A stretch of DNA of 39,816 nucleotides from IMG/VR virus record IMGVR_UViG_2541047807_000001, positions 1 through 39,816 of that record; one strand, given 5' to 3'. A program made the position numbers and the translations under genes. The notes beneath the pieces are model-generated. The model ran no database searches. It had not been told where the DNA came from and saw only the letters and a list, made by a program, of their open reading frames with translations. This DNA comes from a virus. Its lineage: Duplodnaviria > Heunggongvirae > Uroviricota > Caudoviricetes. Each line of letters starts with the position of its first letter. Position 1 is the first letter of the stretch. Shown piece by piece: positions 2,406 through 39,816 of the stretch.

Positions 2406-2608
2406 AACCAACACTCCTCTCATTGCTGCGAGGTGGAAAACACAGCATCCGAGATATGGCAAAGATTCTTGGTATCTCAAGATCGAAGGTTTCTTGGTTC
2501 ATCGCTGAGCTTGAACGTCGCAAATGGGTAGAGGTAACCAGGAGCGCAATATATTTCCACGATGGAACCAGATCCAACAAGCAGAACGAATACAAGGTTA
2601 AGTTATGA
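2402..2608 (+). CDS. Small HTH DNA-binding protein
   Basis: HTH-like segment IRDMAKILGISRSKVSWFIAELERRKW; start overlaps the stop of the upstream gene. Confidence 0.5.
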   Translation: MKPTLLSLLRGGKHSIRDMAKILGISRSKVSWFIAELERRKWVEVTRSAIYFHDGTRSNKQNEYKVKL

Positions 2609-3426
2609 ATACTGGCATCTATTTCGACATCAGCAATGAGGACTACCACGCCGGTGACGGCGTGAGTAAGTCGCAACTAGACATGGTTGCCAAGAATCCG
2701 GCGCTTCTTAAATGGGTTCAGGCAGCACCAGAAGACGAAGAGAAAAAGTCTGCACTGGATATGGGAACCGCATTGCACTGTCTGCTTCTGGAGCCTGGAG
2801 AATTCAACAAACGCTTCATTGTTTCACCGAAATTCGATCGTCGGACGAAACAAGGTAAAGCTGACGAAGAAGCATTTCTTCGTGATGTAGCGGATATGGG
2901 GATTACGGTACTTGATGCCGAGCAGTGGCGGAAACTGGAGCTGATGCGTGATAGCGCAATGGCTCACCCGGCGGCACGCTGGATGCTGGAAGCACCTGGT
3001 TACTGCGAAGCATCAATGTACTGGAATGATGAAGAGACTGGTGAGTTGTGCCGCATTCGTCCAGACAAATGGCTGAACGAGCACAACGTGATCGTCGACG
3101 TGAAAAAGGTTGCAGATATGGACCGTTTTGCACGCCACATCGAGGAATTCCGCTACCACGTGCAGGACGCAATGTACCGCGAAGGAGCGATGAGGGTTAC
3201 TGGTCAGTCGCATGGTTTTTTCTTTCTTGCCGTGAGCGAAAGCATTGATTGTGGTCGGTATCCGGTACGCGTGTTCGAGCTGGATGCGCCGGATGTCGAT
3301 GCCGGGCACGCCCTGTTCCGCCGGGATCTGAATACCTATCACGAATGCCGCATCAATGATGAATGGGGCGGCGTGGAAATTATTAAACGCCCTGACTGGG
3401 CACGTAAACAGGATATGTACGTATGA
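2605..3426 (+). CDS. PD-(D/E)XK exonuclease (YqaJ / lambda Exo-like recombination exonuclease)
   Basis: RPD...VIVDVKK motif (PD-x12-DVK), size about 270 aa, immediately upstream of and coupled to a RecT-like gene. Confidence 0.6.
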   Translation: MNTGIYFDISNEDYHAGDGVSKSQLDMVAKNPALLKWVQAAPEDEEKKSALDMGTALHCLLLEPGEFNKRFIVSPKFDRRTKQGKADEEAFLRDVADMGITVLDAEQWRKLELMRDSAMAHPAARWMLEAPGYCEASMYWNDEETGELCRIRPDKWLNEHNVIVDVKKVADMDRFARHIEEFRYHVQDAMYREGAMRVTGQSHGFFFLAVSESIDCGRYPVRVFELDAPDVDAGHALFRRDLNTYHECRINDEWGGVEIIKRPDWARKQDMYV

Positions 3427-4304
3427 GCAATGATATCGCAATCACATCACAACCAGGCGCAACTGTAGGTACTGCTGCGGCAATCTTCAGCCCGGAGGGC
3501 ATGAATCAACTGGTGCGTTTCGCGGAGTTGATGTCACAAAGCAAAGCGACTGTACCGAAACATCTTGAAGGCAAACCTGCCGATTGTCTGGCGGTGACCA
3601 TGCAGGCGGCACAGTGGGGAATGAACCCTTTCGCCGTGGCGCAGAAAACGCATATGGTAAACGGAACGTTAGGCTACGAAGCACAGTTGGTAAACGCGGT
3701 CGTATCCTCTTCCAGCCTGCTAGCGACACGCCTGAATTATCGCTGGAGCGGTGACTGGTCGAATGTTAACGGCAAAACAGATAAATCACCGAATCTGACG
3801 GTAACTGTGTCAGCAGTTCTTAAAGGAGAAGCAGAACCCCGTGAGCTTACCATCAGTATGGCGCAAGCCGGAGTGCGTAACTCTCCATTGTGGGAACAGG
3901 ATCCGCGCCAGCAGCTTGCCTATCTTTGCACGAAACGATGGGCTCGCCTGCACGCTCCTGATGTACTTCTCGGTGTTTACACCCCTGACGAATTACAGGA
4001 AACGGCACCGCGCGTTGAGCGAGACATTACTCCGCAAACGACTACTGCTGCGGGAATGAACAGTCTGATCAACGCTAAACCAGTGAAAAAGCCTGATGAG
4101 CAAACGCGTAAAGCGGATAGCCGTGATCCAGAAGAAATGCTGATGGCCTTTACCAGCGCAGCGATGAATTACAGCACTGTCTCCGAACTGGATAAGGCTT
4201 ACAAATACATTGCACAAAAACTTTCAGATGATGACGAACTGCTGGCAAAAGCCACCGACGTTTACAGCGTTCGTCGGGAAGAATTAAACGAAACATCTAT
4301 GTAA
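3423..4304 (+). CDS. RecT-family single-strand annealing protein
   Basis: Conserved RecT-like core (PADCLAVTMQAAQWGMNPF ... NGTLGYEAQLVNAVV); paired with the upstream exonuclease. Confidence 0.7.
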   Translation: MSNDIAITSQPGATVGTAAAIFSPEGMNQLVRFAELMSQSKATVPKHLEGKPADCLAVTMQAAQWGMNPFAVAQKTHMVNGTLGYEAQLVNAVVSSSSLLATRLNYRWSGDWSNVNGKTDKSPNLTVTVSAVLKGEAEPRELTISMAQAGVRNSPLWEQDPRQQLAYLCTKRWARLHAPDVLLGVYTPDELQETAPRVERDITPQTTTAAGMNSLINAKPVKKPDEQTRKADSRDPEEMLMAFTSAAMNYSTVSELDKAYKYIAQKLSDDDELLAKATDVYSVRREELNETSM

Positions 4305-4711: not shown

Positions 4712-5011
4712 GTGAGAAAGTTAAGCCGACTTGAAAAATATCACATGAACAAGGTTTCAATGCGCCGTCCTTCAAAGGTTATCGCCGTTACTCCTGCGGC
4801 GATAGAGTTCGAAAAACGCGCGATTGAAAGAGAGAAAAAAGGGCAGTTCCGCATTGCCGCTCACCTTTGGCTTCAGTGTATGGATGTTGCTTCTGGTGAT
4901 GTTGAACGTGCAAGGATCGCGGTTCGCAGGGACCAATGTATCACAAAAGGTAACGGCCTTCGCCGTGGCGACTATAGCGGCATAGGATGTTGTGGGGTGG
5001 TTTATGACTAA
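4712..5011 (+). CDS. Hypothetical protein (start uncertain)
   Basis: ORF only; GTG at 4712 or ATG at 4745. Confidence 0.3.
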   Translation: MRKLSRLEKYHMNKVSMRRPSKVIAVTPAAIEFEKRAIEREKKGQFRIAAHLWLQCMDVASGDVERARIAVRRDQCITKGNGLRRGDYSGIGCCGVVYD

Positions 5012-5654
5012 GAAATACACACTAATCTATGCAGATTCACCCTGGGTATACCGGGACAAAGCCGCAGATGGTAATCGCGGTGTCGGTTTTAAATATCCGG
5101 TTATGAGTGTGCTGGATATCTGCCGCCTTCCTGTGTGGGATTTGGCCGATGAAAACTGTCTGTTGGCCATATGGTGGGTGCCAACACAACCACTCGAAGC
5201 ACTAAAAGTTGTTGAAGCCTGGGGATTCCGTCTGATGACCATGAAGGGCTTCACGTGGATAAAATGTGGTAGTCGACAACCAGATAAACTGGTTATGGGT
5301 ATGGGACACATGACTCGCGCCAATAGTGAAGATTGCCTGTTTGCGGTAAAGGGAAAACTACCTCCGCGCATTAATGCAGGTATCGTTCAGTCATTTACCG
5401 CACCGCGGCTTGAGCATTCAAGAAAACCAGATGTCGTTCGTGAAAAACTTGTGCAATTGTTAGGCGATGTTTCTCGCATTGAACTGTTCGCCCGCCAGTC
5501 GTCTCATGGCTTCGATGTTTGGGGTAATCAGTGCGAAGACCCGGCAGTGCAACTACACCCTGGATACGCGTTGGATATTGGCGGATTAACAAATGCATTC
5601 AGCAATGCTCCGCTGTCACTAACAGACAACCAGGGGCGGGAGCGTGCTGCATGA
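5004..5654 (+). CDS. Phage Dam-like / MT-A70 family DNA N6-adenine methyltransferase
   Basis: IYADSPW (DPPW-like catalytic motif) near the N-terminus and conserved C-terminal IELFARQSSHGFDVWGNQ. RBS ggggtgg before ATG 5004. Confidence 0.7.
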   Translation: MTKKYTLIYADSPWVYRDKAADGNRGVGFKYPVMSVLDICRLPVWDLADENCLLAIWWVPTQPLEALKVVEAWGFRLMTMKGFTWIKCGSRQPDKLVMGMGHMTRANSEDCLFAVKGKLPPRINAGIVQSFTAPRLEHSRKPDVVREKLVQLLGDVSRIELFARQSSHGFDVWGNQCEDPAVQLHPGYALDIGGLTNAFSNAPLSLTDNQGRERAA

Positions 5655-5848: not shown

Positions 5849-7099
5849 TTATTCCCCCGCCATCCACTTCTCAAACTTCGACGGGGAGAACGGAATCAGA
5901 TCCGTATGCTCCCCGTTAATCCAGGAATCAATCATATCGGCCCACTGCTGCAACATGTAGGCGCGCTGTCTGGCGTATTCCGCTTTGTTATATACGGCGC
6001 GCACACCTTTCTGCTCATGTGCCAGAGCCTTTTCAATCCAGTCTGAAGGATAACCAGCCTCATGCAACAACGTACTGGCTGTACGGCGCATATCGTGTAC
6101 GGTGAAGCCCTGAATATGCTCACCATCTTCATTTATTATTTTCACCGTTCTGTCGATCAGAGAGTTCAGCGCGGCATTAGATAATGGCTTCCGGAAATTG
6201 TAACGACCAGGAACCAGATATTCACTTCCACCAGCGCACATCTGCAACCCAACCAATATATCCTGTGCCTGTTTAGGCAGGTAAATAACGTGCGCCCGGC
6301 TTCCCTTCATGCGGTCTGAAGGAATTGTCCATGTCCATTTTTTAAAATCTATTTCATCCCACGTTGCATTGGTGAATTCGCCTTTACGAACCATAGTGAT
6401 AAGCACCAGCTTTAAAGCCATTTTCATAGTGCCCATAGCACCAATGGCATCCAGCGTGCGGAAGAACAGGCCAATTTCTTCTGGTGTCAGTGTTCGCTCT
6501 CGTGGTTTAAATATGGCGATAGACGAAGGTTTAATGTCAGCCGCAGGATTAAACAAACCATGACCACGGTCATTGGCGTGACGGTATACGCTGCTGATGA
6601 TCTCCCTGGCCTGTACTGCTGTTGCCCGACCACCGCGTTCGACAATCCGGTCACACAAATCACGAACCATCGATGTGGTAATTTCAGCCATCATTTTGTT
6701 GCCAAGAACCGGAAGTATGTCACGGTCGATCACCGCCTGCTTCATTGCGCGGGTACTGTCAGCCAGGATGACGTGTTTCATATAACTGTCGGTATGTACC
6801 GCAAACGTCTCGGCACCACGAATCTTTTTGATACCGTCACGTTTAGCCGCAGCCGGCGACTGGCCTGCTTTAAGCAGCTTCTTTGCAGCAATCAGTTCTT
6901 CTCGCGCTTCTGCCAGGCTGATACCGTCACGCCCATACTGCCCGATTACCAGTGTTTCGCGGCGACCGTTGATACGGTAGTCATAGCGAAACGAGACCGT
7001 GCCTGACGTAAGCACAGCTACATACAGCCCGTCACGATCGGAGACCTTGTACAGTTTGTCCTGCGGCTTGAGGTTTTTTAATTTTGTATCGGTAAGCAC
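5849..7099 (-). CDS. Tyrosine recombinase, phage integrase (P4-type with N-terminal arm-binding domain)
   Basis: 416 aa. N-terminal LTDTKLKNLKPQDKLYKVSDRDGLYVAV (arm-binding type) and C-terminal catalytic region with HDMRRTASTLL and a conserved Tyr. Confidence 0.85.
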   Translation of the reverse strand: MLTDTKLKNLKPQDKLYKVSDRDGLYVAVLTSGTVSFRYDYRINGRRETLVIGQYGRDGISLAEAREELIAAKKLLKAGQSPAAAKRDGIKKIRGAETFAVHTDSYMKHVILADSTRAMKQAVIDRDILPVLGNKMMAEITTSMVRDLCDRIVERGGRATAVQAREIISSVYRHANDRGHGLFNPAADIKPSSIAIFKPRERTLTPEEIGLFFRTLDAIGAMGTMKMALKLVLITMVRKGEFTNATWDEIDFKKWTWTIPSDRMKGSRAHVIYLPKQAQDILVGLQMCAGGSEYLVPGRYNFRKPLSNAALNSLIDRTVKIINEDGEHIQGFTVHDMRRTASTLLHEAGYPSDWIEKALAHEQKGVRAVYNKAEYARQRAYMLQQWADMIDSWINGEHTDLIPFSPSKFEKWMAGE

Positions 7100-12663: not shown

Positions 12664-12687
12664 GCCGCATAAGCGGTTTTTTTATGT
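12664..12687 (+). terminator. Rho-independent terminator
   Basis: ccgc-ataa-gcgg hairpin followed by a run of seven T. Confidence 0.5.
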
Positions 12688-12837
12688 GTAAAGCGCACCT
12701 ATTCTATGGTGGGCTGTGTGGGGGCACCGAAAGGTGCGCCGGGTCCTTTGTAGCCGGTTACGCCAACCCTGCACAGTTCACCACCAACCGATTGGCGTCG
12801 GTAGTGGTGATTAACCTAACTACAAAGGTGATCACTA

Positions 12838-13523
12838 TGACTGCTAACGTAACCCCATCTGTTTTTCATTTTGAATCAGAAGCAACCATTCGAGCCATTG
12901 TTATTGATGGAAATCCTTGGTTTGTTGCCAAAGACGTTATTAAAGCTCTTCAACTGACAAACCCCACTATGTCAATAAAATCTCTTGATGATGATGAAAG
13001 GGCTAAATTTAACTTAGGCCGTCAAGGCGAAACCAATATTATCAACGAGTCAGGCCTCTACACACTGATCCTCCGCTGCCGCGACGCAGTGACACCAGGC
13101 ACTATCCCCTACCGCTTTCGTAAATGGGTTACAGGTGAGGTTCTTCCTCAGATCCGCCGCACCGGAAGTTACATTAAAAACTCGCTCCCGCAGGAAGAAC
13201 GCATAAAGATGGTTGCCGACCAGGTAGCCAACGCCATAGCATCAGCAGTGATGCAGGCAATGAAGATAGAGAACAAAACCTACAGTGCCCCGCTGAAGCC
13301 CGGCTACCGCAGTCTGATTCATTCGCCGTCGGGTGTTCTCGGCCTGACGGAGAACTCACTGCTGATGAATCTGCTGAACCAGTTACAGGAAGACGGGCAT
13401 GACGTATCGGGCGCGGCGGCGGAGTTGACCACCATGTTCTGCTACATCGTCGGTGTGAGCAAATGCCTGCGTGATATCCAGACCCACGCGGAGTACATCA
13501 ACGACAAGGCAGGGTTCTTCTGA
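12838..13523 (+). CDS. Antirepressor (Bro-N / AntA-type N-terminal domain)
   Basis: FHFESEATIRAIVIDGNPWFVAKDVIKALQLTNP is a Bro-N/Ant signature. RBS aaggtga before ATG 12838; the longer ORF-track start at 12684 lies in the terminator T-run. Confidence 0.7.
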
Positions 13524-13669: not shown

Positions 13670-13849
13670 ATGCGAAACGAAAAATTGCAGATGCGTAGAG
13701 CGCAAGCTGCCGCAAGACGTTCTTTCAATGGAAGCGTAGAGTACGTAAAAGTTACTATGACAAAAGATCACGCAAGTCGCGTATCCCGCGCTTTCTTTGA
13801 TTCTCGTAACAATAAGGAAAATTATGAGTTCGTCTGCGTCGCAGAATGA
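13670..13849 (+). CDS. Small basic protein overlapping the start of the toxin-like gene (candidate partner or antitoxin)
   Basis: 59-codon ORF with RBS gagg 8 nt upstream; overlaps the next gene by 26 nt. Confidence 0.35.
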   Translation: MRNEKLQMRRAQAAARRSFNGSVEYVKVTMTKDHASRVSRAFFDSRNNKENYEFVCVAE

Positions 13850-14369
13850 TAAAAATCAAATTGTCAGATATAAGGGTCGAGTGTTGCATACGCAAAATTT
13901 CTCGGCCCTTTGTGCATCTGATCTTGAGCTGAAGAAAGTATCTGATGCCTTTACCCAGTATTGGAAAACGGGATACCATCCATCTCTTGGTAAAGATGCT
14001 GCATTTGCTCGTCCGACAGAAATGCTTAAACTAAATGTCAGGCATACTCATGTCGATAACCAAGACTATATTCCAGAAGATAGTGATAAAAAACACACTG
14101 GTAAAAAATCATCTTGGGATGCATGGAAAAATATAGCGTCTGTACAAGTAAAATGCATACCAACAAGTGATTGCTTTTTAGTTTATTCGGTAAATCACAA
14201 TCGTGATGCGCTGGTTATGTTTTTTGTTGACGCAGATGCTCACAACATAACTGAGCAAGAAGAGTTTAAAGAGGAAGCAATCACTATCAGTTATCAATTC
14301 TTTGAGAAAACAAAAACAGAACCAATGCCTTTAGAAGAAGATCTTTTTTCTGATAAATGGAAGGAATAG
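13824..14369 (+). CDS. YafO-like toxin family protein (candidate ribosome-dependent mRNA interferase)
   Basis: Three blocks in YafO order: YWKTGYHPSLGKDAAF, LNVRHTHV, CFLVYSVNHNRDALVMFFVDADAH, matching my recollection of E. coli YafO (...FGRDALY.., ..ERVAHIHL.., ..AHLVYCQGAFDEQAWLLIAILKPEPH). RBS aaggaaaa before ATG 13824. Confidence 0.5.
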   Translation: MSSSASQNDKNQIVRYKGRVLHTQNFSALCASDLELKKVSDAFTQYWKTGYHPSLGKDAAFARPTEMLKLNVRHTHVDNQDYIPEDSDKKHTGKKSSWDAWKNIASVQVKCIPTSDCFLVYSVNHNRDALVMFFVDADAHNITEQEEFKEEAITISYQFFEKTKTEPMPLEEDLFSDKWKE

Positions 14370-32127: not shown

Positions 32128-33603
32128 TTAAGCATAGGGATCGTAATCTGTGATGGCCTTGCCTTGCTGGTTCTGCTGCCCGGGAATTCGCAGACGCTTC
32201 GACACAGGGAACGCAAACGTCAGCAGTAGCGCATCGCCTTTACCCGGCGAACGCCCAAGCCGCTCCTTGATATCTTCCTTCGGTTCGATAACGATTTTAC
32301 CGTCCACGCGAACTTTGTACTCTGCCGCCGACAGGTCGTCTGCTGTTTCCTGGTCATCCAGCATGCCGCCCAGCCTCAGCCATGTCTTGCATGAATTGAA
32401 CATCTCCCCACGCTTGTTAAGCATCTGCGGGTCAGTAGACGCGCCACCGAACGGAACAAGTTGCCATGTACGACCCCAGCCATCACCGATTGACTTCAGA
32501 CCAGTTCCGTAACCGAAGTCGATGAACACTGCGTCAGCCTGGTACTGGTCTTCAAAGTCAGCGATACGCTTCGCCATAATCAGATCGTCGGTAGTCTTGT
32601 TGCCAGTCCACAGCACCTTACTGTGTAGCCCCTGCCGTAGGTATATCACCGCGTCATCAACGCCTGAATATGCCGGGTCAACACCGATTATCACCGGAGC
32701 ATGCGCCACCTGCGCAGCGGTTACCACCCGTTTCATTGCCTCATCAGTAAGACCGGTAGGGATAAACTGCAATTCAGATGCATCAGGGAATATGCCGCGC
32801 ACACGGATTTTAACGAAGTCGCTGTCTTCCCCGTAGTCATCAACCCATTTCTGCAACTGCTGTTTGTTAGTGCCTTCCACCGTCCGGCTGTCAATCTGCG
32901 CAGTTTTCCAGCGGTGTTTATATTTGCGGAAACATTCGCGGAAACGCCCGGTGTTACGTGTAGGGTTTCCGAACGCCACCCAGATAATCTCAGTGTCTTC
33001 GTCCGTAAGCGCACCCTCAGCAACTTCCCACACCAGATCCGCAATGTTCGACGCTTCATCGAATACCACGATGATGCGTTTGCGCTCGTTGTGTAGTCCG
33101 GCAAATGCCTCAGTGTTGTGCTCAGACCAGGGGATTGCGTCAGCTCGCCAACGCTTGTCGTGCCCAGGGTCATTGCTGTACATCGCGGTAGCGGTACAGG
33201 TAAACCAGTCTTTCGTGATAGCAAGGTTCGACCACTTGATAATTTCCGGCCAGGTCTTCGTTCGTAGCTGGTTGTCGGTGTTGGCAGTCACCACGACCTT
33301 ACAATCCTCGCAAGTGGACATGCCCCAGTTGATCAACATTGAGATGAATGCTGATTTACCAATACCGTGACCCGAAGCACGTGCCAGCATAAGCGGCTGA
33401 TAGCGCGTCTCGGGATTCTGCAGGTGATCACGTATCTCTCGGAACGCATCAGCCTGCCACTGACGTGGGCCGGTAGCATGTGCCAGTTCAGTCCCCTCTT
33501 CCCCCCACGGGAACGCATAGAGGGAATAGCCAAGCGGATCGTGAGTGAACCCTGCAATATCCTCGATCAATTGCTCTTCAGGAGATAACGCTGTATCTGT
33601 CAC
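32128..33603 (-). CDS. Terminase large subunit
   Basis: 491 aa. Walker A-like GHGIGKS near the N-terminus with VVFDEASNI (Walker B-like), and a C-terminal nuclease-like region. Follows the small terminase with overlapping start. Confidence 0.85.
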   Translation of the reverse strand: MTDTALSPEEQLIEDIAGFTHDPLGYSLYAFPWGEEGTELAHATGPRQWQADAFREIRDHLQNPETRYQPLMLARASGHGIGKSAFISMLINWGMSTCEDCKVVVTANTDNQLRTKTWPEIIKWSNLAITKDWFTCTATAMYSNDPGHDKRWRADAIPWSEHNTEAFAGLHNERKRIIVVFDEASNIADLVWEVAEGALTDEDTEIIWVAFGNPTRNTGRFRECFRKYKHRWKTAQIDSRTVEGTNKQQLQKWVDDYGEDSDFVKIRVRGIFPDASELQFIPTGLTDEAMKRVVTAAQVAHAPVIIGVDPAYSGVDDAVIYLRQGLHSKVLWTGNKTTDDLIMAKRIADFEDQYQADAVFIDFGYGTGLKSIGDGWGRTWQLVPFGGASTDPQMLNKRGEMFNSCKTWLRLGGMLDDQETADDLSAAEYKVRVDGKIVIEPKEDIKERLGRSPGKGDALLLTFAFPVSKRLRIPGQQNQQGKAITDYDPYA

Positions 33604-34196
33604 TGATTGCCATCCTGACGTTCTTTCAGTCTCTTCCTGGCTGCCGCTATGCGATCAGCAATTGTCACATTCACATTAACATCCAGGCGTTCTTTGAATG
33701 CATTGACATCGACGTGCTTACCAATCAGCTCAAGGTTCTTCACCTTGTCAGGCCATTTAATTTTTTTGAGGATTGTCTCTATCGAATCCTCGTTCATGTT
33801 CATGATGGTCGATGACAGATCAAAGCCGCTAAGCGTAGTGCGCCAGATTTTCGGCCACTCGCGGATTGGCTTAAGGCTCCCATCGTCGTTGAGGATGTCG
33901 ATCACGTCCATCTGGTCGATCTCCACCAGGCGCATGAGAACGTAATCAGCACTGACGCGCATTCGTTTGTTGCGCTCCTCCATCAACTCGGCAATCCGTT
34001 TTTGAATGCGTTCATCGCGCATCATGACACTGGCTTTAACTGCCGCTGTATTTGGGGAGAATCCTGCATTAATCGCTGCCTGAGTCTGGTTTTCAGGCGT
34101 TTTGATGTATGACTGGCAATAAGCCTCCTGCATTGCTGTTAGTGGCTTAAATTGCGTTGATTTGCGTTTATAGGTTTTAGGTTCAGCAGGCATCAT
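33600..34196 (-). CDS. Terminase small subunit
   Basis: MPAEPKTYKRKSTQFKPLTAMQEAYCQSYIKTPENQTQAAINAGFSPNTAAVKAS is a small-terminase N-terminal pattern. Start ATG at 34196 or 34193; the longer ORF-track start includes 5' UTR repeats. Confidence 0.65.
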   Translation of the reverse strand: MMPAEPKTYKRKSTQFKPLTAMQEAYCQSYIKTPENQTQAAINAGFSPNTAAVKASVMMRDERIQKRIAELMEERNKRMRVSADYVLMRLVEIDQMDVIDILNDDGSLKPIREWPKIWRTTLSGFDLSSTIMNMNEDSIETILKKIKWPDKVKNLELIGKHVDVNAFKERLDVNVNVTIADRIAAARKRLKERQDGNQ

Positions 34197-34313
34197 AACC
34201 ACCGTGGTAATAGTTACCGTTGTGGTAATAGTACCATGCAAAATAAAGCCGCCATAGTTGGCGGCAGTATTCAAAACCATCAAATTCATCATGCATAATC
34301 TACTCGTGACATG

Positions 34314-34655
34314 TCACACTATTAATTTCGTTTCATGCCAGCCTTTAGTCACCCAGCATTGCGAGTCACCATTACACGGGCATGAATTAACGGGAACTCT
34401 CTCGCCGCACTTACCGCAACATTTTCTGCTGATCGATTTTATACGCCCGCGCACGCGTGCATCATCCTGGCGGATCAGTAACGCTATATACTCACCAAAT
34501 TCGTAAGGCGCACGCCCGGGGCGACGCGTGGCACAGTTACGCTCCAGCATTTCAATTTCCTGAGCATCAAGCACAATTTCCAGCTTACGCACACCAGATG
34601 CAGCTTGTCTGGCTCTCTGAGCGGCTTTGCGCTCTGCTGCTGATTTAGCCATCAA
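34314..34655 (-). CDS. Hypothetical protein with Cys-rich C-terminus
   Basis: 113 aa ending in CCGKCGERVPVNSCPCNGDSQC; last gene before the late operon. Confidence 0.45.
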   Translation of the reverse strand: MMAKSAAERKAAQRARQAASGVRKLEIVLDAQEIEMLERNCATRRPGRAPYEFGEYIALLIRQDDARVRGRIKSISRKCCGKCGERVPVNSCPCNGDSQCWVTKGWHETKLIV

Positions 34656-34926
34656 TATTCACCTTTATCGCGAATACCTTTACCGGTTTATCGCCGAAGT
34701 GCGGATGTGTGATTGTCTTGATTTCATATCCGTCATACGGAACATCAATTCTACGGCTGGAATCGTCGCGCTTCGGATATCCCTTTGTGATAATCAGGCG
34801 GTCATACTCCCGGAACATAATTCGCTTATTCCAGTAGTCATTACACAGGCGATACTCTTCCGTTTTCTCTCCGCGAATCATGGCATCGAAGTATTCACCT
34901 TTGACGGCAAGTTGCAGGTTAGCCAC
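34645..34926 (-). CDS. ASCH-domain-like protein
   Basis: N-terminal GEKTEEYR matches the ASCH GxKxxExR signature; 93 aa. Confidence 0.45.
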   Translation of the reverse strand: MANLQLAVKGEYFDAMIRGEKTEEYRLCNDYWNKRIMFREYDRLIITKGYPKRDDSSRRIDVPYDGYEIKTITHPHFGDKPVKVFAIKVNIDG

Positions 34927-35512
34927 GGTTAACCTCCTGCGGCGGTTCTGGTAGCGGCATCCAGTGGGTTACCTCTTTGAGATACAGGTCTTCGCCACCA
35001 CCGTCATCCCAAGTGGGATTGCCATCATTAAACCAGTCGCCATATACGCCGACCTGAGTGTTGGGGATGTTTGGTGGGTAGTTGTTTTTAAAGTCAGCCG
35101 CTAACACATAGCATTGTCGCTCTCCCATTTCTGGCATTAGCTCACTACAGCTTATCCAACCATCCGGAGTTACCGGAGAGTTGCCATTTATATCGAAGTT
35201 TGGTTCTGCGTCCTGAACCAGGAGGATGTAACCATTCTTGGCAGTATCAAGTTCTAACGCCTCGGTGACGGTACCGAAATAGCGATTACCTAAATCCGCA
35301 TCACAAGTGCTTACATCAATGGAAACCTCCATGCCTTCGATTAATTCTGGCAAGTTGTAAGTTTGGCTTACAGGCTCTGCTTCCAGCGATACCAGTGCAA
35401 TTCGTGCCAGTTCTTCCGCTTCTTCTGCTGGCAGTACAACGTTGCTATCAGGTCCGTATGTTTCGCGCCACTGCTTGATTGTCAGCAGTCGCTCTTTGGT
35501 AATAGTGATCAT
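34919..35512 (-). CDS. DUF551-like early protein; N-terminal module shared with the gene at 36026..36439
   Basis: First ~45 aa (MITITKERLLTIKQWRETYGPDSNVVLPAEEAEELARIAL) nearly identical to the paralogue; C-terminal PDGWISCSELMPE segment. Confidence 0.5.
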   Translation of the reverse strand: MITITKERLLTIKQWRETYGPDSNVVLPAEEAEELARIALVSLEAEPVSQTYNLPELIEGMEVSIDVSTCDADLGNRYFGTVTEALELDTAKNGYILLVQDAEPNFDINGNSPVTPDGWISCSELMPEMGERQCYVLAADFKNNYPPNIPNTQVGVYGDWFNDGNPTWDDGGGEDLYLKEVTHWMPLPEPPQEVNRG

Positions 35513-36024
35513 GCCGCGTTTCCTTCTTTCTTATTAACAATTACACCGTCATATATTTCATTAAGGTGCCCTCTCAACTCCATGCGCCTTAATGCAGATA
35601 ACATGTAATCGCATTCAACCTGCTTATTCCCAATAAAAGGTTTATCTTCAGGGTTACCCCAACAGCAATTACCCTTGGGCCACCCATGTACTTTCCGTAC
35701 TCTTCCGTTAACAACGTGAAGTAATCCCCAGCCAGGTGGTAAATCCTCAATTGAAATAATTCCCGGCTCACTAATAAAGAATCGCCAGTCGCCCATTCCA
35801 AGAGACGGATTTTTACGAAAACGCTTTTTTCTATCTGCCAACAAGTCAGCACGAGAACACTTCGCCTCTATCAGGCATGATGCTGAATTTCTGAATCCCA
35901 TAGCATCTGGCTGTTCTCCGGTACTGGTTACAGCAACAAAGCGGTCATGAAAGCAAACCTTGAACCCGTTGCGCTTAAGGAACTTGTACGCAATCTGACA
36001 GAGTTCGTGGTGTGTTAACGCCAT
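35509..36024 (-). CDS. Putative PD-(D/E)XK-fold nuclease-like protein
   Basis: GEQPDAMGF...CLIEAKCS fits a PD-x(n)-E-x-K arrangement. Strong RBS AAGGAG before ATG 36024. Confidence 0.4.
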   Translation of the reverse strand: MALTHHELCQIAYKFLKRNGFKVCFHDRFVAVTSTGEQPDAMGFRNSASCLIEAKCSRADLLADRKKRFRKNPSLGMGDWRFFISEPGIISIEDLPPGWGLLHVVNGRVRKVHGWPKGNCCWGNPEDKPFIGNKQVECDYMLSALRRMELRGHLNEIYDGVIVNKKEGNAA

Positions 36025-36025
36025 A

Positions 36026-36439
36026 TCACTCTCCTTTACCCTGAAGCATGGCGGCGCGGCAGGCGTTCCATATTTCGGCAGCAATATCGCGCTCGCTATC
36101 GGTTAATTTGTACGTTGAAACATAGCCAGAGAGCATTTCTACGTTTTCCGGAGTTGCTTCTTCAGGCACTACCGGTGCTGGAGGGGCGGCGTAAATGCCC
36201 TCTATCACTAAATGTTTGCGCTCAAAATCATCTGGCTCTCGATGATATACGTAACTCCAATCACCAAGGTTATCATTGCGCCTGCAACGGAAACCTATCG
36301 GCTCGACTTCCAGCGCTGCCAGAGCAATCCGCGCCAGTTCTTCCGCTTCTTCTGCTGGCAGTACAACGTTGCTACCAGGTCCGTATGTTTCGCGCCACTG
36401 CTTGATTGTCAGCAGTCGTTCTCTGGTAATAGTTGTCAT
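36026..36439 (-). CDS. Hypothetical early protein; N-terminal module shared with the gene at 34919..35512
   Basis: MTTITRERLLTIKQWRETYGPGSNVVLPAEEAEELARIALAAL, then a divergent C-terminus. Confidence 0.5.
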   Translation of the reverse strand: MTTITRERLLTIKQWRETYGPGSNVVLPAEEAEELARIALAALEVEPIGFRCRRNDNLGDWSYVYHREPDDFERKHLVIEGIYAAPPAPVVPEEATPENVEMLSGYVSTYKLTDSERDIAAEIWNACRAAMLQGKGE

Positions 36440-36449
36440 TTGTTATGCC

Positions 36450-36647
36450 TCAATACACAAAATCTGTTTTAAATTCATGGTTACATTCTGGACAGCATGT
36501 TTCGTAACCTTTTATTTCTTCACATGCCTGTTTAGCTCCAGAAAACTCCCAGAAATCTGGATCACAAAGCAGATCGAAATTGTGACCACATTTGGGACAT
36601 TCGGTATCAAGTGACAGACTCCAGTAGGCAGTGATGTTTTTATCCAT
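36450..36647 (-). CDS. Small zinc-ribbon protein
   Basis: CPKCGH ... CCPECNH pairs of Cys motifs. Same 17-nt translation initiation region as the nuclease-like gene. Confidence 0.45.
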   Translation of the reverse strand: MDKNITAYWSLSLDTECPKCGHNFDLLCDPDFWEFSGAKQACEEIKGYETCCPECNHEFKTDFVY

Positions 36648-36648
36648 A

Positions 36649-37251
36649 TCACTCTCCTTTGATGCGAATGCCAGCGGCGCGGATAGATTTCCATTGTTCC
36701 CACATTCGGTTGAAGTCTGTGCCTGATAAGGTTGCGTTACGGTATCCAGTTTCGGTACGCAATCCTTCAAGCGTCGATTTGGAGATACAAATTGAATGCA
36801 TTACCCATGATTCAAACAAATCACGCTCCCGAGCTTCGCAACTTTGCTTACTCATATATTCGATACGATCAGCCATCGCAGCGCACTCTTCAAAGTTGCT
36901 AAATGCCTTTCGCTCCCATTCAGCGCATTGTTTTCTAAGCTCTGCAATCAGCTTGTCTTTGCCTTCCAGCTCAACTCGTAGCTTCCCAACCGTTAGCGCA
37001 ATATCCTCGTTCTCCTGGTCGCGGCGTTTGATGTATTGCTGGTTTCTTTCCCGTTCATCCAGTAGTGCCAGCACGGTTTCTGGTCCGGTCAGAAATTTGA
37101 AGGCGTTGAGCGCATCAATATCCACACCGTAATCTTTAAGTTCCTGTTCACTTAACAAATCATCATCAGCTGGCAACATTAACAGGAGTTCCATTGCTGG
37201 AATTGCACGTTCCGCCGCCTCACGCAGTGCCTGGTAATTAATTTCGCTCAC
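36649..37251 (-). CDS. Hypothetical early protein
   Basis: GTG start at 37251 with strong SD GGAGG 7 nt upstream, overlapping the stop of the previous gene. Confidence 0.45.
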   Translation of the reverse strand: MSEINYQALREAAERAIPAMELLLMLPADDDLLSEQELKDYGVDIDALNAFKFLTGPETVLALLDERERNQQYIKRRDQENEDIALTVGKLRVELEGKDKLIAELRKQCAEWERKAFSNFEECAAMADRIEYMSKQSCEARERDLFESWVMHSICISKSTLEGLRTETGYRNATLSGTDFNRMWEQWKSIRAAGIRIKGE

Positions 37252-37552
37252 TGGTTGCCTCCTTTGCTGGGCTTTCGAACTTCTGAGTGGTTGTATCAAA
37301 CTCAAACAACTTAACCACGTCATCAAACAGGACATAATCGCCATCAGAATCTTCAGTCATGTCAGCGCCACAATCCTGACCGCACGAGTCACAACCACCC
37401 ATATCAAGCTCGTATCGCTTCAGGTTTGCGATATTTGATAAATTCAGCGCCAGTACAGCCAGGTCATAAACCTCTTCGGCAGTGACATCGCTGTTCAGTC
37501 CCATTTCATGGCGATATATGATTTTTTCTACTTGTTGTTTTGTGATTGTCAT
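37238..37552 (-). CDS. Hypothetical early protein
   Basis: 104-aa ORF, acidic, coupled within the early-right operon. Confidence 0.45.
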   Translation of the reverse strand: MTITKQQVEKIIYRHEMGLNSDVTAEEVYDLAVLALNLSNIANLKRYELDMGGCDSCGQDCGADMTEDSDGDYVLFDDVVKLFEFDTTTQKFESPAKEATSERN

Positions 37553-38061
37553 TTTTGCTCACCTCCCTGTTCTTCCAGAAAAATACGCATAGCCTCAAGC
37601 ATCTCTTCGGTGTCATATGGTGACAACTTGTCACGCAGGATGTGTTCAATGCTGTTAATGAACTTGCGGATTGCTTTGCGTTCAATTTCAGCCAGGAAAG
37701 CATCTGTAGCCAGGGTTTGCGGCATACCTCCGTCTGTTGCGCAGATATACGCATCAGATATTTCATCCTGCTCGCCATTAAACACATAGCAACTCTGTAC
37801 GATAAATTTATTCAGCTCCGCATTCTCCGCCGCCAGCGCCGAAAACTTCTCGTGTGCCAACTTAACAGCCGCATCAGCCTGCTTAATTGACTCAATCGCT
37901 CTCTGGTGGTCTTCGGCCAGCTCATTAGCACGCACCAACTGAACTTCCAGTTGCGCTGCCAAACAGCGAACAAGCACGGATGGTGCGCCTGTCATGTCGT
38001 CAGCTAACGCATGCCCTGATGCCACTAAATCTTTGATCATACCTTCAGCCATACTTTCCAT
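37549..38061 (-). CDS. Hypothetical early protein
   Basis: 170-aa ORF coupled to the downstream gene. Confidence 0.5.
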   Translation of the reverse strand: MESMAEGMIKDLVASGHALADDMTGAPSVLVRCLAAQLEVQLVRANELAEDHQRAIESIKQADAAVKLAHEKFSALAAENAELNKFIVQSCYVFNGEQDEISDAYICATDGGMPQTLATDAFLAEIERKAIRKFINSIEHILRDKLSPYDTEEMLEAMRIFLEEQGGEQK

Positions 38062-38122
38062 CTTTACCCTCGCTTATCCACATAACTTATTGATTACATT
38101 GATAACTAAAAAGATCGTCGAT

Positions 38123-38467
38123 TCAGAACTCTTCGATTTTCCAGCCACCACCTGCTTTCTTTGGCTTAACAGTTACCCCGATGATTCGGAACGGATATTG
38201 ATCTGCGGCGACTTTGGTTTTCACCCTGGCGTCGTCGGTCCAGAAACCTTTCACTTCGTGCAGTTCCATCTCTCCGGTGGCGAGCATCACAGCGAAATCT
38301 GGCGTATAGAACGTGTTATCAGCTAACCGCAGCTTGATACCCTCGAATCGATACCAGGCGATTTCCCCTGCACGTTTACGCAGCTCAAGGTGCTGGCAAT
38401 ACGCAGATTCTGTTTTGTTCATCTGGCCTGTTTTGAGTCGACCAAGAGCCTGTATCTGTTTTCTCAT
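38123..38467 (-). CDS. Small PD-(D/E)XK-like protein (DUF1064-like)
   Basis: YTPDFAVMLATGEMELHEVKG fits PD-x(n)-E-x-K; 114 aa. Confidence 0.4.
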   Translation of the reverse strand: MRKQIQALGRLKTGQMNKTESAYCQHLELRKRAGEIAWYRFEGIKLRLADNTFYTPDFAVMLATGEMELHEVKGFWTDDARVKTKVAADQYPFRIIGVTVKPKKAGGGWKIEEF

Positions 38468-38470
38468 GAT

Positions 38471-38537
38471 TTACCCCTGAGGTAATTAAAAACCACATAA
38501 GACACGAAATCAATAGAGTTTAGAATATTTTATTACC
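38471..38537. promoter_or_regulatory. Operator pair between the P-like gene and the next early gene
   Basis: TTACCcctgaGGTAA (38471-38485) and TTACCcagcaGGTAA (38523-38537). Confidence 0.45.
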
Positions 38538-38584
38538 CAGCAGGTAATTATCAAGACGTAAAAAAATGCGCTATCGCGCTGGTA

Positions 38585-39385
38585 TTACTTGATAAATCCT
38601 GCCGCCTTTCCCCGCCTGTATTCCTCCATCAGCCACTGCGCCGGTGTTATTCCCCCCAAGGTAGCGGCGTTAGGCATACACCCGAAACTTCGCCCTGGTG
38701 GATGGTAAACGTCTCTCCCTGTGTCCGGAGGCGTACTCATGGGTTCTGGCTTTGCCTGTATGCTGATCACCGGATCGGGTATCTGCTGTCCGGAAGCCAC
38801 CTTTTTCGCCCAATCATCAAGCAGCCTGCGCGCATGTTTCTCAACCTCAATCTCGCTAAGCTGGCGCTGATACATTGCACGGCGGGTATCACATACGACC
38901 CAGTACATAACCGGATGCCGCCACGGGAATCTTTCGGGACCACCAGGATATAAACTTTTTTCCTTGCTGTACCGGTGAAACTCCGCCATCACATCGTCAA
39001 TGGTGACGCCAAGAACCATCTTGCTGTCTTTACACCACTTGATAAATTGCCCTGGCGACGGCCAGAACGGAGATTCACTGGCGCGGGCGTGGCGCATACC
39101 AGCAGAAACCTGTTCACGGGTTCGGATCCCCCCTTCGGCAAACGCAGCAATCCACTGCTGTTTTGCAGCAACTTCCTGCTCTGGCGTCTTCAGGTTGGTT
39201 ACCACTGCCGCCGGAAACAGTTGTTTCAGCTGTTTGAAAAGGACATCAACAAGCCTCTCTGCTGACATGTTCACCACATTGTCATTGTTGACGTACTGAT
39301 GCTCATAACCTGACATGCGAGAAAGGGCTTCTCCGTCACGGTTTTGTATCGCGGTAAAAACGTTGTTCACAAGAAATCCTCCCAC
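38585..39385 (-). CDS. Replication protein P-like helicase loader
   Basis: QQWIAAFAEGGIRTREQVSAGMRHARASESPFWPSPGQFIKWCKDSK parallels lambda P (RRQWVLAFRENGITTMEQVNAGMRVARRQNRPFLPSPGQFVAWCRE) as I recall it. Overlaps the O-like stop; start codon uncertain. Confidence 0.7.
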   Translation of the reverse strand: MGGFLVNNVFTAIQNRDGEALSRMSGYEHQYVNNDNVVNMSAERLVDVLFKQLKQLFPAAVVTNLKTPEQEVAAKQQWIAAFAEGGIRTREQVSAGMRHARASESPFWPSPGQFIKWCKDSKMVLGVTIDDVMAEFHRYSKEKSLYPGGPERFPWRHPVMYWVVCDTRRAMYQRQLSEIEVEKHARRLLDDWAKKVASGQQIPDPVISIQAKPEPMSTPPDTGRDVYHPPGRSFGCMPNAATLGGITPAQWLMEEYRRGKAAGFIK

Positions 39386-39816
39386 GCTTCAGGGCTGTTC
39401 CAGTGCGGAACGTTGTTATCAGGTAATGTTGATTGCTTCTGTCTGCTAATCTGCAGCCGCCTTGCCAGCTTCTGCTCCCACTGTGCCTGATGGTATGCCT
39501 TACCCTCAGCCATCCAGTAAATTCTGAACTCTGCAAGTTCCTGTGCCGTTGGCAGACTGTCCAGGTAGATCCCCTGCAATGAGCTTTTCCGAAGAAAGTC
39601 ATCTGATGGCTGCCATTGTTCATGCATGACAAATTTGCCTAATTGCCCTGGCCCACCAGGAGGAACAAAGTTATTCATCACGGCGTTGTTTGCGCCGGGG
39701 TCATGAGGCACAGAATCCCCGGTTTTTGTCCTGCTCTCCCTCTCTTGGTTAAATGACTGGTTATATGACTGGTTCTGGATCCCGTTTTTGGGATCATTCA
39801 ACATCCCGTTTTTGGG
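39367..39816 (-). CDS. Replication initiator O-like, C-terminal part (N-terminal part is 1..461 across the circular junction)
   Basis: In-frame continuation of the iteron-encoded repeats (MLNDPKNG...); C-terminal domain directly upstream of the P-like gene, as in lambdoid O-P pairs. Confidence 0.75.
   Translation of the reverse strand, partial: PKNGMLNDPKNGIQNQSYNQSFNQERESRTKTGDSVPHDPGANNAVMNNFVPPGGPGQLGKFVMHEQWQPSDDFLRKSSLQGIYLDSLPTAQELAEFRIYWMAEGKAYHQAQWEQKLARRLQISRQKQSTLPDNNVPHWNSPEAWEDFL
39722..39816. repeat. Terminal overlap, identical to nt 1-95
   Basis: Exact identity of the last 95 nt with the first 95 nt. Confidence 0.9.

What the first reader, a model, noticed from the sequence alone, without database searches (positions are those of the whole stretch)
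35415..36439. Duplicated N-terminal module (~100 bp, about 95% identical) at the start of two different genes flanking a nuclease-like cassette, plus a repeated 17-nt translation initiation region
35415-35512 and 36343-36439 are near-identical direct repeats encoding the same first ~35-45 aa of two proteins with unrelated C-termini. The PD-(D/E)XK-like gene 35509..36024 lies between them. A 17-nt block CCATATCACTCTCCTTT (RBS plus start context) is also repeated at 36021-36037 and 36644-36660. Such repeats are plausible substrates for RecT-mediated module exchange or cassette insertion and excision.
Basis: seen in the sequence. Interest (0 to 1): 0.55.

Follow-up and report, generated by a model that had tools for sequence, protein, structure and literature searches.

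The report
Shuffled accessory-gene modules sharing conserved joints
The two repeats are real, but they are standard "connector" sequences of a large, heavily reshuffled family of phage accessory genes, not the ends of a mobile nuclease cassette. This is a clear example of a known way that phage genomes become mosaics.

Summary
Both repeats exist and are not chance. The window is a whole 39.8-kb E. coli phiV10/epsilon15-like phage contig. The repeats lie in its accessory region between the replication and terminase genes.

**The ~140-nt repeat** encodes a 47-aa N-terminal module:
- It is found, nearly invariant, at the start of more than 440 otherwise dissimilar protein clusters.
- After the hinge …ALASLEAEP, dozens of alternative C-terminal modules follow.

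**The 17-nt repeat** is a universal gene joint, read as K-G-E-stop / Shine-Dalgarno / ATG:
- It precedes at least 8 different genes and follows at least 10 different protein tails.

**The two window copies are separately acquired alleles, not an in-situ duplication.** They are 91% identical to each other, the pool mean is 94%, and one copy has 99.3% matches in other phages.

**The gene between them has a PD-(D/E)XK nuclease fold:**
- None of 80 other loci has it flanked by the N-module on both sides.
- The same modules occur in every order elsewhere.
- E. coli MB53 carries exactly the window minus the 927-bp repeat-to-repeat unit.

The phage encodes RecT. Homologous exchange at conserved linkers is the best explanation, inferred rather than shown. 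This is a known kind of phenomenon and is of modest interest.

The parts
36644..36660 (-). Junction J2: the last codons K-G-E plus TGA of the Ea22-like gene, the Shine-Dalgarno AAGGAG, and the ATG of the zinc-ribbon gene
   Evidence: It is an exact 17-mer repeat. The same AAAGGAGAGTGA[T/G]ATG occurs in 90 related loci.
36649..37251 (-). Ea22-like gene ending …GIRIKGE*. The start is probably the GTG at 37251, not the ATG at 37344 that the ORF list gives.
   Evidence: Pfam Ead_Ea22 E = 5e-28. The translation reads …QPV-SEINYQALREAAERA, matching the MSEINYQ… starts of homologs.
36450..36650 (-). Small CxxC…CxxC zinc-ribbon-like gene (66 aa). It is one of the alternative small genes that follow the junction.
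   Evidence: It matches phrog_4173 and gives weak zinc-binding hits. It is present in 60 IMG/VR loci in varied contexts.
36026..36439 (-). 137-aa gene: N-module copy B (36300-36439) plus a C-part ending …NACRAAMLQGKGE*
   Evidence: The C-part is 99% identical in E. coli SY033, where it lies downstream of the nuclease-like gene.
36300..36439 (-). N-module copy B (47 codons plus hinge)
   Evidence: Its best match in the pool is 95.7%.
36021..36037 (-). Junction J1: K-G-E plus TGA of the 137-aa gene, the Shine-Dalgarno sequence, and the ATG of the nuclease-like gene
   Evidence: It is an exact 17-mer. Homology to EC.W1-9 and TL-2011b ends at 36037/36038. Bin 36020-36039 holds the most breakpoints, 86.
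35509..36024 (-). PD-(D/E)XK-fold ('nuclease-like') gene, 171 aa. It has no Pfam, NCBIfam or PADLOC family.
34919..35512 (-). 197-aa gene: N-module copy A (35373-35512), a middle module, and a DUF551 C-terminal domain ending …PEPPQEVNRG*
   Evidence: Pfam DUF551 E = 6e-19. The identical protein P0356 is on record from a 39,816-bp NCBI E. coli contig.
35373..35512 (-). N-module copy A. Its ATG overlaps the TGA of the nuclease-like gene.
   Evidence: It has 99.3% matches in L075, L014 and L034.
34645..34945 (-). Third type of joint plus the next gene. The tail codons Q-E-V-N-R-G contain AGGAGG and the GTG start of the ASCH-type gene (34645-34926).
   Evidence: The sequence was read. The ASCH name comes from the annotation of 98%-identical phiV10 gp54.
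37238..37552 (-). 104-aa gene starting MTITK…, a possible distant third N-module-type gene (tentative)
   Evidence: Residues 1-47 match phrog_3323 at E = 3.8e-4. There is no BLASTP similarity to the 137-aa protein.
2605..4304 (+). The phage's own recombination module: a PDDEXK-like exonuclease (2605-3426) and RecT (3423-4304)
   Evidence: Pfam DUF3799 E = 2.7e-22 and RecT E = 2.9e-31.

Best explanation
The accessory region is built from interchangeable modules. These are joined by a small set of conserved connector sequences.

**Connectors**
- J: …K-G-E-stop / Shine-Dalgarno / ATG.
- The gene start ATGACCACTATTACC (M-T-T-I-T).
- An in-gene hinge ATTGCnCTGGCATCnCTGGAAGCnGAnCC (…IALASLEAEP).
- RBS-containing C-terminal tails such as …PQEVNRG*.

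**Layout of the window.** It holds two such units in tandem:
- J2 – zinc-ribbon gene – N-module::137-aa gene.
- J1 – PD-(D/E)XK gene – N-module::DUF551 gene.

So both the junction and the N-module appear twice. The two copies are separately acquired alleles from a gene pool shared by lambdoid, P22-like, P1-like and epsilon15-like phages of Enterobacterales.

**Inferred mechanism.** Homologous or homeologous recombination occurs within these connectors. It is catalysed by phage single-strand annealing recombinases (this phage has RecT) or by host RecA, during co-infection or with resident prophages. This swaps, inserts and deletes modules. The same repeats could also delete 927 bp or 623 bp within this genome.

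**Shown versus inferred**
- Shown: the anatomy, the family-wide distribution, the permuted and deletion-type natural variants, and the clustering of breakpoints.
- Inferred: the enzyme, the direction of the events, and that the connectors cause recombination rather than merely surviving it.
For: 1. The 47-aa N-module matches 568 cluster representatives (441 at E <= 1e-10) at 83-96% identity. It sits at residues 1-47 in nearly all, and the sequences are unrelated after …EAEP.
2. Among 80 loci with the nuclease-like gene:
   - 81/81, counting the window, carry J.
   - The upstream genes differ but end in …IKGE* or …TKGE*.
   - The downstream genes are 63 distinct proteins, all starting M(I/T)T(I/L/F)T.
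3. J precedes at least 8 different genes.
4. About a dozen unrelated alternative N-modules share the same 18-nt 5' linker and ~27-nt hinge.
5. The same modules occur in all orders:
   - nuc–Nmod–ZnR–Nmod, Nmod137–ZnR–…, and ZnR–Nmod137–reg in IMG/VR loci.
   - SY033 has nuc–Nmod::137C at 99% identity.
6. E. coli MB53 has Ea22–J–ZnR–Nmod::DUF551–ASCH, which equals the window minus 927 bp, as one contiguous 434-nt match at 97.0%. Its N-module is a patchwork of A and B diagnostic sites.
7. 46% of 946 homology breakpoints fall in the 5.4% of the region made up of the connectors, including the intragenic hinges. The homology edges of EC.W1-9 and TL-2011b lie at 36037/36038.
8. Copy A versus copy B is 91.4%, the pool mean is 94.2%, and A has 99.3% matches elsewhere.
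9. RecT and an exonuclease are encoded in the window. Rad52-like recombinases are reported to make mosaics on short, diverged homologies (PMC3945230). 'Short conserved boundary sequences' are an established proposal (Clark 2001 and Susskind & Botstein 1978, as cited in PMC3029335).
Against: - No recombination event was observed. Everything is comparative.
- The 17-nt J is shorter than the quoted minimal pairing segment for Red-beta (23-27 nt), so exchange exactly there should be inefficient. Beyond the 17-mer, identity is only 22/39.
- The loci were retrieved through the nuclease-like and zinc-ribbon genes, and many are near-identical prophages. The breakpoint counts are therefore not independent, and edges of those two genes are enriched by design.
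- Connector conservation also has plain functional reasons:
  - J carries a ribosome-binding site and supports translational coupling.
  - The N-module is a protein domain under purifying selection (third-position diversity 0.118 versus 0.029 and 0.037).
- Selection after random joining could therefore give a similar picture.
Confidence: 0.75

Rival explanations
1. Illegitimate recombination plus selection (the Hendrix-type model). Joints form at random. Only those that fall at gene or domain boundaries survive. The shared connectors are conserved for function: ribosome binding, translational coupling and a folded N-terminal domain. They are not the sites where strands are exchanged.
For: - J contains a canonical AAGGAG with 7-nt spacing and a stop/start overlap.
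- The N-module shows protein-level purifying selection.
- J is below the pairing length quoted.
- The literature notes that boundary sequences are absent at most mosaic joints (PMC3029335).
Against: - The connectors are identical at nucleotide level, including the spacer AGTGAT and the base after the ATG, in front of at least 8 unrelated genes.
- Unrelated N-modules share the hinge at nucleotide level.
- The MB53 N-module is an A/B patchwork, as expected from exchange inside the module.
- Exactly permuted and deleted variants join in register at the repeats.
Confidence: 0.15
2. The PD-(D/E)XK gene is a selfish, homing-endonuclease-like free-standing nuclease. It cuts related phages near the junction or N-module. 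It thereby drives its own insertion and the local mosaicism, and the repeats are the homology arms used for repair.
For: - It has a nuclease fold with invariant D40, E53 and K55.
- It is present or absent at a constant position between J and an M-T-T-I-T gene. 'Empty' sites, where J is followed directly by an N-module-type gene, do exist.
- It is unusually well conserved (96-99% aa) amid hypervariable neighbours.
- It co-travels with the type-1 N-module (about 58 of 80 loci).
Against: - In 0 of 80 loci is it flanked by the N-module on both sides.
- The region is just as mosaic in relatives that lack the gene.
- The zinc-ribbon gene and four other small ORFs occupy the same slot.
- No activity or target is known, and there is no match to known homing-endonuclease families.
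Confidence: 0.07
3. In-situ tandem duplication of one ancestral gene start within this genome, followed by divergence or replacement of the C-termini.
For: There are two direct copies 927 bp apart on the same strand.
Against: - The copies are less alike (91.4%) than a random pair from the pool (94.2%).
- Copy A is 99.3% identical to alleles in other phages.
- The C-termini are unrelated.
- Each half of the arrangement exists separately elsewhere at 96-99% identity.
Confidence: 0.03

Closest known systems
Short conserved 'boundary/linker' sequences between modules of lambdoid phages (Susskind & Botstein 1978 modular theory; Clark et al. 2001, phage HK620), as cited in PMC3029335
   Same: Short sequences are shared at the joints between otherwise unrelated modules. 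They lie at gene ends and overlap stop, RBS and start signals. They are proposed as sites of homologous exchange.
   Different: - Here one connector lies inside a coding region (the hinge after a 47-aa N-module).
- The scale could be quantified: more than 440 protein clusters, and at least 8 genes behind one junction.
- I could not read the HK620 paper itself, so I cannot say whether these very sequences were described there.
Mosaic ea22 genes of lambda and Stx phages (PMC10834534)
   Same: They lie in the same genomic neighbourhood and follow the same principle. A shared N-terminal segment and coiled coil carry interchangeable C-terminal domains, including DUF551. In the database the window's DUF551 C-part also occurs fused to Ea22-type N-termini.
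   Different: The N-module here (MTTITKERLLTIKQWRETYGPGSNVVLPAEEAEELARIALASLEAEP) is a different module from the Ea22 N-terminus and coiled coil. No function or structure is known for it.
Relaxed homologous recombination by Rad52-like phage recombinases (Red-beta, RecT, Erf) between phages and prophages (PMC3945230, PMC2327257)
   Same: - It supplies the enzymology assumed here.
- It works on short and ~10% diverged homologies.
- It exchanges segments of about 100 bp within genes.
- The window encodes RecT.
   Different: That was shown for lambda and phi80 with defective prophages. Nothing has been shown for this phage or these connectors.
Mycobacteriophage Island3 gene 68 insertion, flanked by ~50-bp repeats that encode the same C-terminal 18 residues (PMC3029335)
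   Same: An inserted gene is bounded by a repeated gene tail. This matches the 623-bp unit here, bounded by the …KGE*/J repeats.
   Different: It involves a different phage group, was reported as a single case, and is not a family-wide connector.

Membership tests
Mosaic modules joined at short conserved boundary sequences (lambdoid-type modular exchange) | The same short sequence is present at joints between different, unrelated flanking modules in different genomes | tested here: met
   J lies in front of at least 8 genes and behind at least 10 tails. The 5' linker and the hinge are shared by about 12 unrelated N-modules.
Mosaic modules joined at short conserved boundary sequences (lambdoid-type modular exchange) | Homology between genomes breaks at the boundary sequence | tested here: met
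   The homology edges of EC.W1-9 and TL-2011b lie at 36037/36038. 46% of breakpoints fall in 5.4% of the sequence. The sampling is not independent.
Mosaic modules joined at short conserved boundary sequences (lambdoid-type modular exchange) | Natural variants exist that differ by gain, loss or permutation of whole modules in register at the boundaries | tested here: met
   MB53 equals the window minus 927 bp. SY033 and the IMG/VR loci show permuted orders.
Mosaic modules joined at short conserved boundary sequences (lambdoid-type modular exchange) | Exchange is catalysed by homologous recombination at these sequences | not testable with these tools
   Only indirect evidence is available. RecT is present. 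The perfect runs of 43 and 42 nt exceed the published pairing minima.
PD-(D/E)XK nuclease superfamily (for the gene 35509-36024) | An alpha-beta-beta-beta-alpha-beta core fold similar to restriction endonucleases and resolvases | tested here: met
PD-(D/E)XK nuclease superfamily (for the gene 35509-36024) | Conserved D…(D/E)xK catalytic residues | tested here: met
   D40, E53 and K55 are invariant in 33 homologs of 59-88% identity. Their placement on the fold was not checked residue by residue.
PD-(D/E)XK nuclease superfamily (for the gene 35509-36024) | Nuclease activity | not testable with these tools
   No curated family matches. There are only sub-threshold Hjc hits.
Mobile cassette or homing-endonuclease element bounded by the repeats | The element is flanked by the same repeats wherever it occurs | tested here: not met
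   In 0 of 80 loci is the N-module on both sides of the nuclease-like gene.
Mobile cassette or homing-endonuclease element bounded by the repeats | Presence/absence polymorphism at an otherwise conserved site | tested here: inconclusive
   The gene is present or absent between J and M-T-T-I-T genes. The flanks are themselves variable, and other genes occupy the same slot.
Transposon or insertion sequence | Terminal inverted repeats, target-site duplication and a transposase | tested here: not met
   No meaningful inverted repeats flank the unit. No transposase domain is present in the region.
In-situ tandem duplication | The copies are each other's closest relatives | tested here: not met
   Copy A versus B is 91.4%, whereas A reaches 99.3% against other phages. 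44 of 48 pool alleles are closer to A than B is.
Known anti-phage defence systems (PADLOC) | A profile match of any of the nine region proteins | tested here: not met
   There were no hits at E <= 0.01.

The most novel reading that the evidence does not exclude
The 47-aa N-module may be more than a recombination handle. It could be a constant docking or adaptor domain that is genetically and translationally coupled to the small gene just upstream (ATGA overlap).

The exchange unit most often seen is [J – PD-(D/E)XK gene – first 47 codons of the next gene]. The N-module therefore travels with its upstream neighbour rather than with its own C-terminus.

This would make the locus a combinatorial 'constant head, variable payload' effector system of temperate phages. 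It would be analogous in logic to polymorphic toxins: hundreds of C-terminal payloads (DUF551, DUF550/pyrophosphohydrolase-like, and others) delivered to one partner. The nuclease-like protein might also stimulate the local recombination that creates the diversity.
Probability: 0.1. Interest if true: 0.7.

Novelty: new member of a known kind. Interest (0 to 1): 0.3.

Why it matters
How phage mosaics arise is an old argument: homologous exchange at conserved linkers versus random joining followed by selection. This locus is an unusually clean natural test bed for it:
- It has three defined connector types.
- The phage encodes its own RecT.
- Both repeat pairs are present in one genome.
- Natural genomes match the predicted products (MB53 for the 927-bp unit, and many phages for the 623-bp unit).

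The finding also flags that a very large family of "DUF551 / EaA / hypothetical" prophage proteins shares one near-invariant 47-aa head of unknown function. The module's DNA is found in about 16% of complete E. coli genomes, including Stx phages and P1-like plasmids.

It does not reveal a new kind of element.

Tried and rejected
- **N-module search in the 5.8-billion-protein index.** It returned only short or partial proteins. I replaced it with the exhaustive representative search.
- **tblastn of the N-module against phages.** The low-complexity filter masked residues 25-47, so I used only the counts.
- **AF2 model of the 197-aa protein.** At pLDDT 39.8 it is unusable, so there is no structural statement on the N-module beyond a helix-loop-helix tendency. 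No fold search was attempted on it.
- **Rfam scan of 33500-39816.** It gave nothing, so a known RNA element is rejected.
- **Promoter and terminator scan.** The counts are at chance level. The antisense promoter-like hexamers inside both N-modules are not above background.
- **Curated family searches.** PADLOC, NCBIfam and Pfam give no curated family for the nuclease-like, 137-aa or 104-aa proteins.
- **Sequence searches of PDB.** There were no significant hits. Only the fold search was informative.
- **Search for the window's own 137C|J|nuclease joint in 5,426 E. coli genomes.** The eight listed top hits are two separated pieces (opposite gene order). I did not check all 80 high-coverage records, so the uniqueness of this joint is probable but not proven.
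- **Literature searches for EaA and phiV10 accessory regions.** They found nothing specific.
- **Rejected readings.** In-situ duplication, transposon, shufflon/invertible segment (the repeats are direct and there is no invertase), and integron-like cassette.
Full report
**1. Observation**

All genes in 34300-38500 are on the minus strand.

- **The 140-nt repeat.** The repeat finder reports a 140-nt direct repeat, 35373-35512 versus 36300-36439, with spacing 927 and 91% identity.
  - In register this is 128/140 identical, and 95/100 over the first 100 nt from the ATG.
  - It encodes residues 1-48 of a 197-aa protein (34919-35512; C-terminal DUF551) and of a 137-aa protein (36026-36439).
  - BLASTP aligns only those 48 residues (85% identity) and nothing significant after them.
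- **The 17-mer.** CCATATCACTCTCCTTT occurs exactly twice, at 36021-36037 and 36644-36660.
  - There are no extra copies at up to 2 mismatches and none in 100 shuffles.
  - On the coding strand it reads AAA GGA GAG TGA T ATG G. That is the last three codons (K-G-E) and stop of the upstream gene, with the Shine-Dalgarno AAGGAG embedded in them, then the next gene's ATG.
  - Beyond the 17-mer the two tails are still 22/39 identical. They encode related ends, …RAAMLQGKGE* and …RAAGIRIKGE*.

**2. Context**

- The window is a phiV10/epsilon15-like (Uetakevirus-type) E. coli phage. Phage EC.W1-9 covers 84% of 15000-39816 at 97%, and PAS61, TL-2011b, O157 typing phages 9 and 10, phiv142-3, ZX5 and phiV10 follow.
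- The identical 197-aa protein is on record from an NCBI E. coli contig of exactly 39,816 bp, so the window is a whole contig.
- The repeats lie in the accessory block between the replication genes (lambda-P-like 38585-39385; DUF1064 38123-38467) and the small terminase (33600-34292).
- In eight relatives, everything between the DUF1064 gene and the regulator next to terS is different.
- Pieces of this block are 95-97% identical to hundreds of lambdoid/Stx phages, P22-like Salmonella phages and P1/P7-like phage-plasmids. No record holds 80% or more of 34600-37400 in one place.

**3. What the 140-nt repeat is**

- **Distribution.** A HMMER scan of 1.84 billion cluster representatives with the 47-aa module found 568 hits (441 at E <= 1e-10).
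  - The representatives are under 50% identical to one another overall, yet they carry the module at 83-96% identity.
  - In nearly all of them it sits at residues 1-47.
- **What follows it.** Directly after …ASLEAEP the sequences switch to dozens of alternative blocks that are themselves reassorted, with several alternative C-terminal ends. Examples of these ends are DUF551 …HWMPLPEPPQEV…, …NACRAAMLQGKGE and …KMARALLPLV….
- **Size of the family.** The 197-aa protein alone has more than 8,000 related clusters at 90% identity, mostly singletons. Its C-part also occurs behind Ea22-type N-termini.
- **Occurrence at the DNA level.** The module's DNA is in 895 of 5,426 complete E. coli genomes, with up to 7 copies per genome and 269 places on plasmids. 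The module is also found in 187 phage records, many Stx2a phages having two copies.
- **Selection.** Codon-position diversity among 49 alleles is 0.029 / 0.037 / 0.118, so the module is a protein domain under purifying selection.
- **Function.** Its function is unknown. The AF2 model of the whole protein failed (pLDDT 39.8).

**4. Not a local duplication**

- The two window copies are 91.4% identical, less than the mean pair in the pool (94.2%).
- Copy A has 99.3% matches in other phages, and 44 of 48 pool alleles are closer to A than B is.

**5. What the 17-mer is**

- In 80 IMG/VR loci retrieved with the nuclease-like protein, all 81 sequences including the window carry AAAGGAGAGTGA(T/G)ATG immediately before its start. 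The upstream genes differ, though.
- Over all loci held, J occurs in 90 loci.
  - It is followed by at least 8 different genes: the nuclease-like gene, the zinc-ribbon gene, four other small ORFs, and two N-module-type genes directly.
  - It is preceded by at least 10 different tails, such as GIRIKGE, HLRTKGE and MLQGKGE.
- The K-G-E tails are therefore the ribosome-binding site of the next gene read as codons.
- A second joint of the same logic ends the DUF551 gene. …CAG GAG GTT AAC CGT GGC TAA holds AGGAGG and the GTG start of the ASCH-type gene. A third joint probably precedes the Ea22-like gene, with a GTG at 37251.

**6. More connectors**

- Genes of this family always start M(I/T)T(I/L/F)T.
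- About a dozen internally unrelated N-modules exist, and they share two sequences: an 18-nt 5' linker (ATGACCACTATTACCARA) and a ~27-nt hinge (ATTGCnCTGGCATCnCTGGAAGCnGAnCC).
- A 104-aa gene in the window (37238-37552) may be a distant third member. It has a weak PHROG profile match only.

**7. The gene between the repeats**

- It has no curated family, and all its homologs are 'hypothetical' proteins of Enterobacterales prophages.
- D40, E53 and K55 are invariant.
- 12 of 33 homologs give sub-threshold Hjc hits.
- 'Nuclease-like' is therefore justified as a fold. Activity is untested.

**8. Is it a cassette bounded by the repeats?**

No.

- About 58 of 80 loci have the type-1 N-module right after the gene, at +512 with an ATGA overlap. 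None has a full copy upstream.
- In loci retrieved with the zinc-ribbon gene, the same modules occur in many orders: nuc–Nmod–ZnR–Nmod; Nmod::137C–ZnR–altNmod::DUF551mid–ASCH; ZnR–Nmod::137C–regulator; and ZnR–Nmod–DUF551C.
- E. coli SY033, a prophage of the same phage type, has J–nuclease–Nmod::137C, with the 137C part 99% identical. This is the opposite order to the window.
- The window is best described as two units in tandem, [J2–ZnR–Nmod::137] and [J1–nuclease–Nmod::DUF551]. That is why both connectors appear twice.

**9. Presence/absence variants**

- I built the sequence expected if the two N-module copies recombined: ZnR – N-module – DUF551 middle part.
  - E. coli MB53 has it as one contiguous 434-nt match at 97.0%, in the arrangement Ea22–ZnR–Nmod::DUF551–ASCH. 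This is the window minus 927 bp.
  - Its N-module mixes A-type and B-type diagnostic sites, BAAAABBABAAA.
- The product expected from J1 × J2, Ea22–J–nuclease–Nmod gene, is the commonest arrangement among the nuclease loci.

**10. Breakpoints**

- Of 946 BLAST homology ends between 34000-38600 and all loci, 46% lie in eight connector intervals that make up 5.4% of the region.
- The top bins are 36020-36039 (J1), 35360-35379 (hinge A) and 36420-36439 (start of N-module B).
- Caveat: the loci were chosen through two genes of the region and are not phylogenetically independent.

**11. Mechanism**

- The window encodes RecT (3423-4304) next to a PDDEXK-like exonuclease.
- Copies A and B share perfect runs of 43 and 42 nt (derived). 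These exceed the minimal efficient pairing segments quoted for Red-beta (23-27 bp) and RecA (31-34 bp) (PMC3945230).
- That paper also reports frequent exchange of ~100-bp intragenic segments and a major role of Rad52-like recombinases on short, diverged homologies.
- J alone (17 nt) is below those minima, so exchange there should be rarer.
- I therefore commit to homologous or homeologous exchange at the connectors as the generator of this mosaic (confidence about 0.75). The main rival is random joining plus selection (about 0.15). A homing-type role of the nuclease-like gene (about 0.07) and in-situ duplication (about 0.03) are much less likely.

**12. Comparison with what is known**

- Conserved boundary sequences between lambdoid modules are an old proposal (Susskind & Botstein 1978; Clark 2001; cited in PMC3029335).
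- Mosaic ea22 genes with a shared head and swappable C-terminal domains, including DUF551, are published (PMC10834534).
- A repeat-flanked gene insertion has been described in a mycobacteriophage.
- The present locus is a well-resolved new example. It adds an intragenic hinge connector and a very widespread 47-aa head module that I did not find described.
- It is not a new kind of system. Interest 0.3.

Noticed in passing
window 1-39816: The window is a whole NCBI E. coli contig of 39,816 bp (from the P0356 record). It appears to be a complete phiV10/epsilon15-like temperate phage genome with integrase (5849-7099), an MT-A70 methyltransferase (4992-5654), a Bro-N protein (12684-13523) and a YafO-toxin-like protein (13797-14369).
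   Followed up: partly
window 39779-39792 and 39803-39816: An exact 14-nt direct repeat, ATCCCGTTTTTGGG, occurs twice 24 nt apart at the very end of the contig, upstream of the replication genes. It could be iteron- or operator-like.
   Followed up: no
window 35479-35506 and 36406-36433 (+ strand): Both N-module copies contain the same promoter-like pair TTGTCA-16-AATAGT, antisense to the genes. The overall count of such sites in the region is at chance level.
   Followed up: partly
window 36649-37344: The ORF list starts the Ea22-like gene at the ATG at 37344, overlapping the upstream gene by 107 nt. Homologs start MSEINYQ…, so the real start is probably the GTG at 37251, behind an AAGGAGG embedded in the upstream gene's tail.
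   Followed up: partly
nuclease loci L009-L088 versus ZnR loci L089-L148: The type-1 N-module follows the nuclease-like gene in about 58 of 80 loci but follows the zinc-ribbon gene in only about 9 of 60. So the first 47 codons of the downstream gene tend to travel with the upstream gene. This is linkage across a gene boundary.
   Followed up: partly
P0090, P0379; phage Lys8385Vzw (H11): Several database records name proteins of this family 'Valyl-tRNA synthetase'. One phage record names its match 'dTDP-6-deoxy-L-hexose 3-O-methyltransferase' (phi191, H129). These look like propagated mis-annotations.
   Followed up: no
L152 (E. coli SY033, NZ_CM185152.1 1392101-1398009): In this sibling prophage several genes of the block are annotated as frameshifted or truncated pseudogenes (a DUF551 gene split in two, and a hypothetical gene after Ea22). 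This suggests decay, or errors made by recombination in this region.
   Followed up: no
P0011, P0047-P0054: Stand-alone ~73-aa versions of the N-module (the module plus a short tail) recur in Citrobacter, Salmonella and E. coli, in clusters of up to 25 members. The module may therefore exist as an independent small protein.
   Followed up: no
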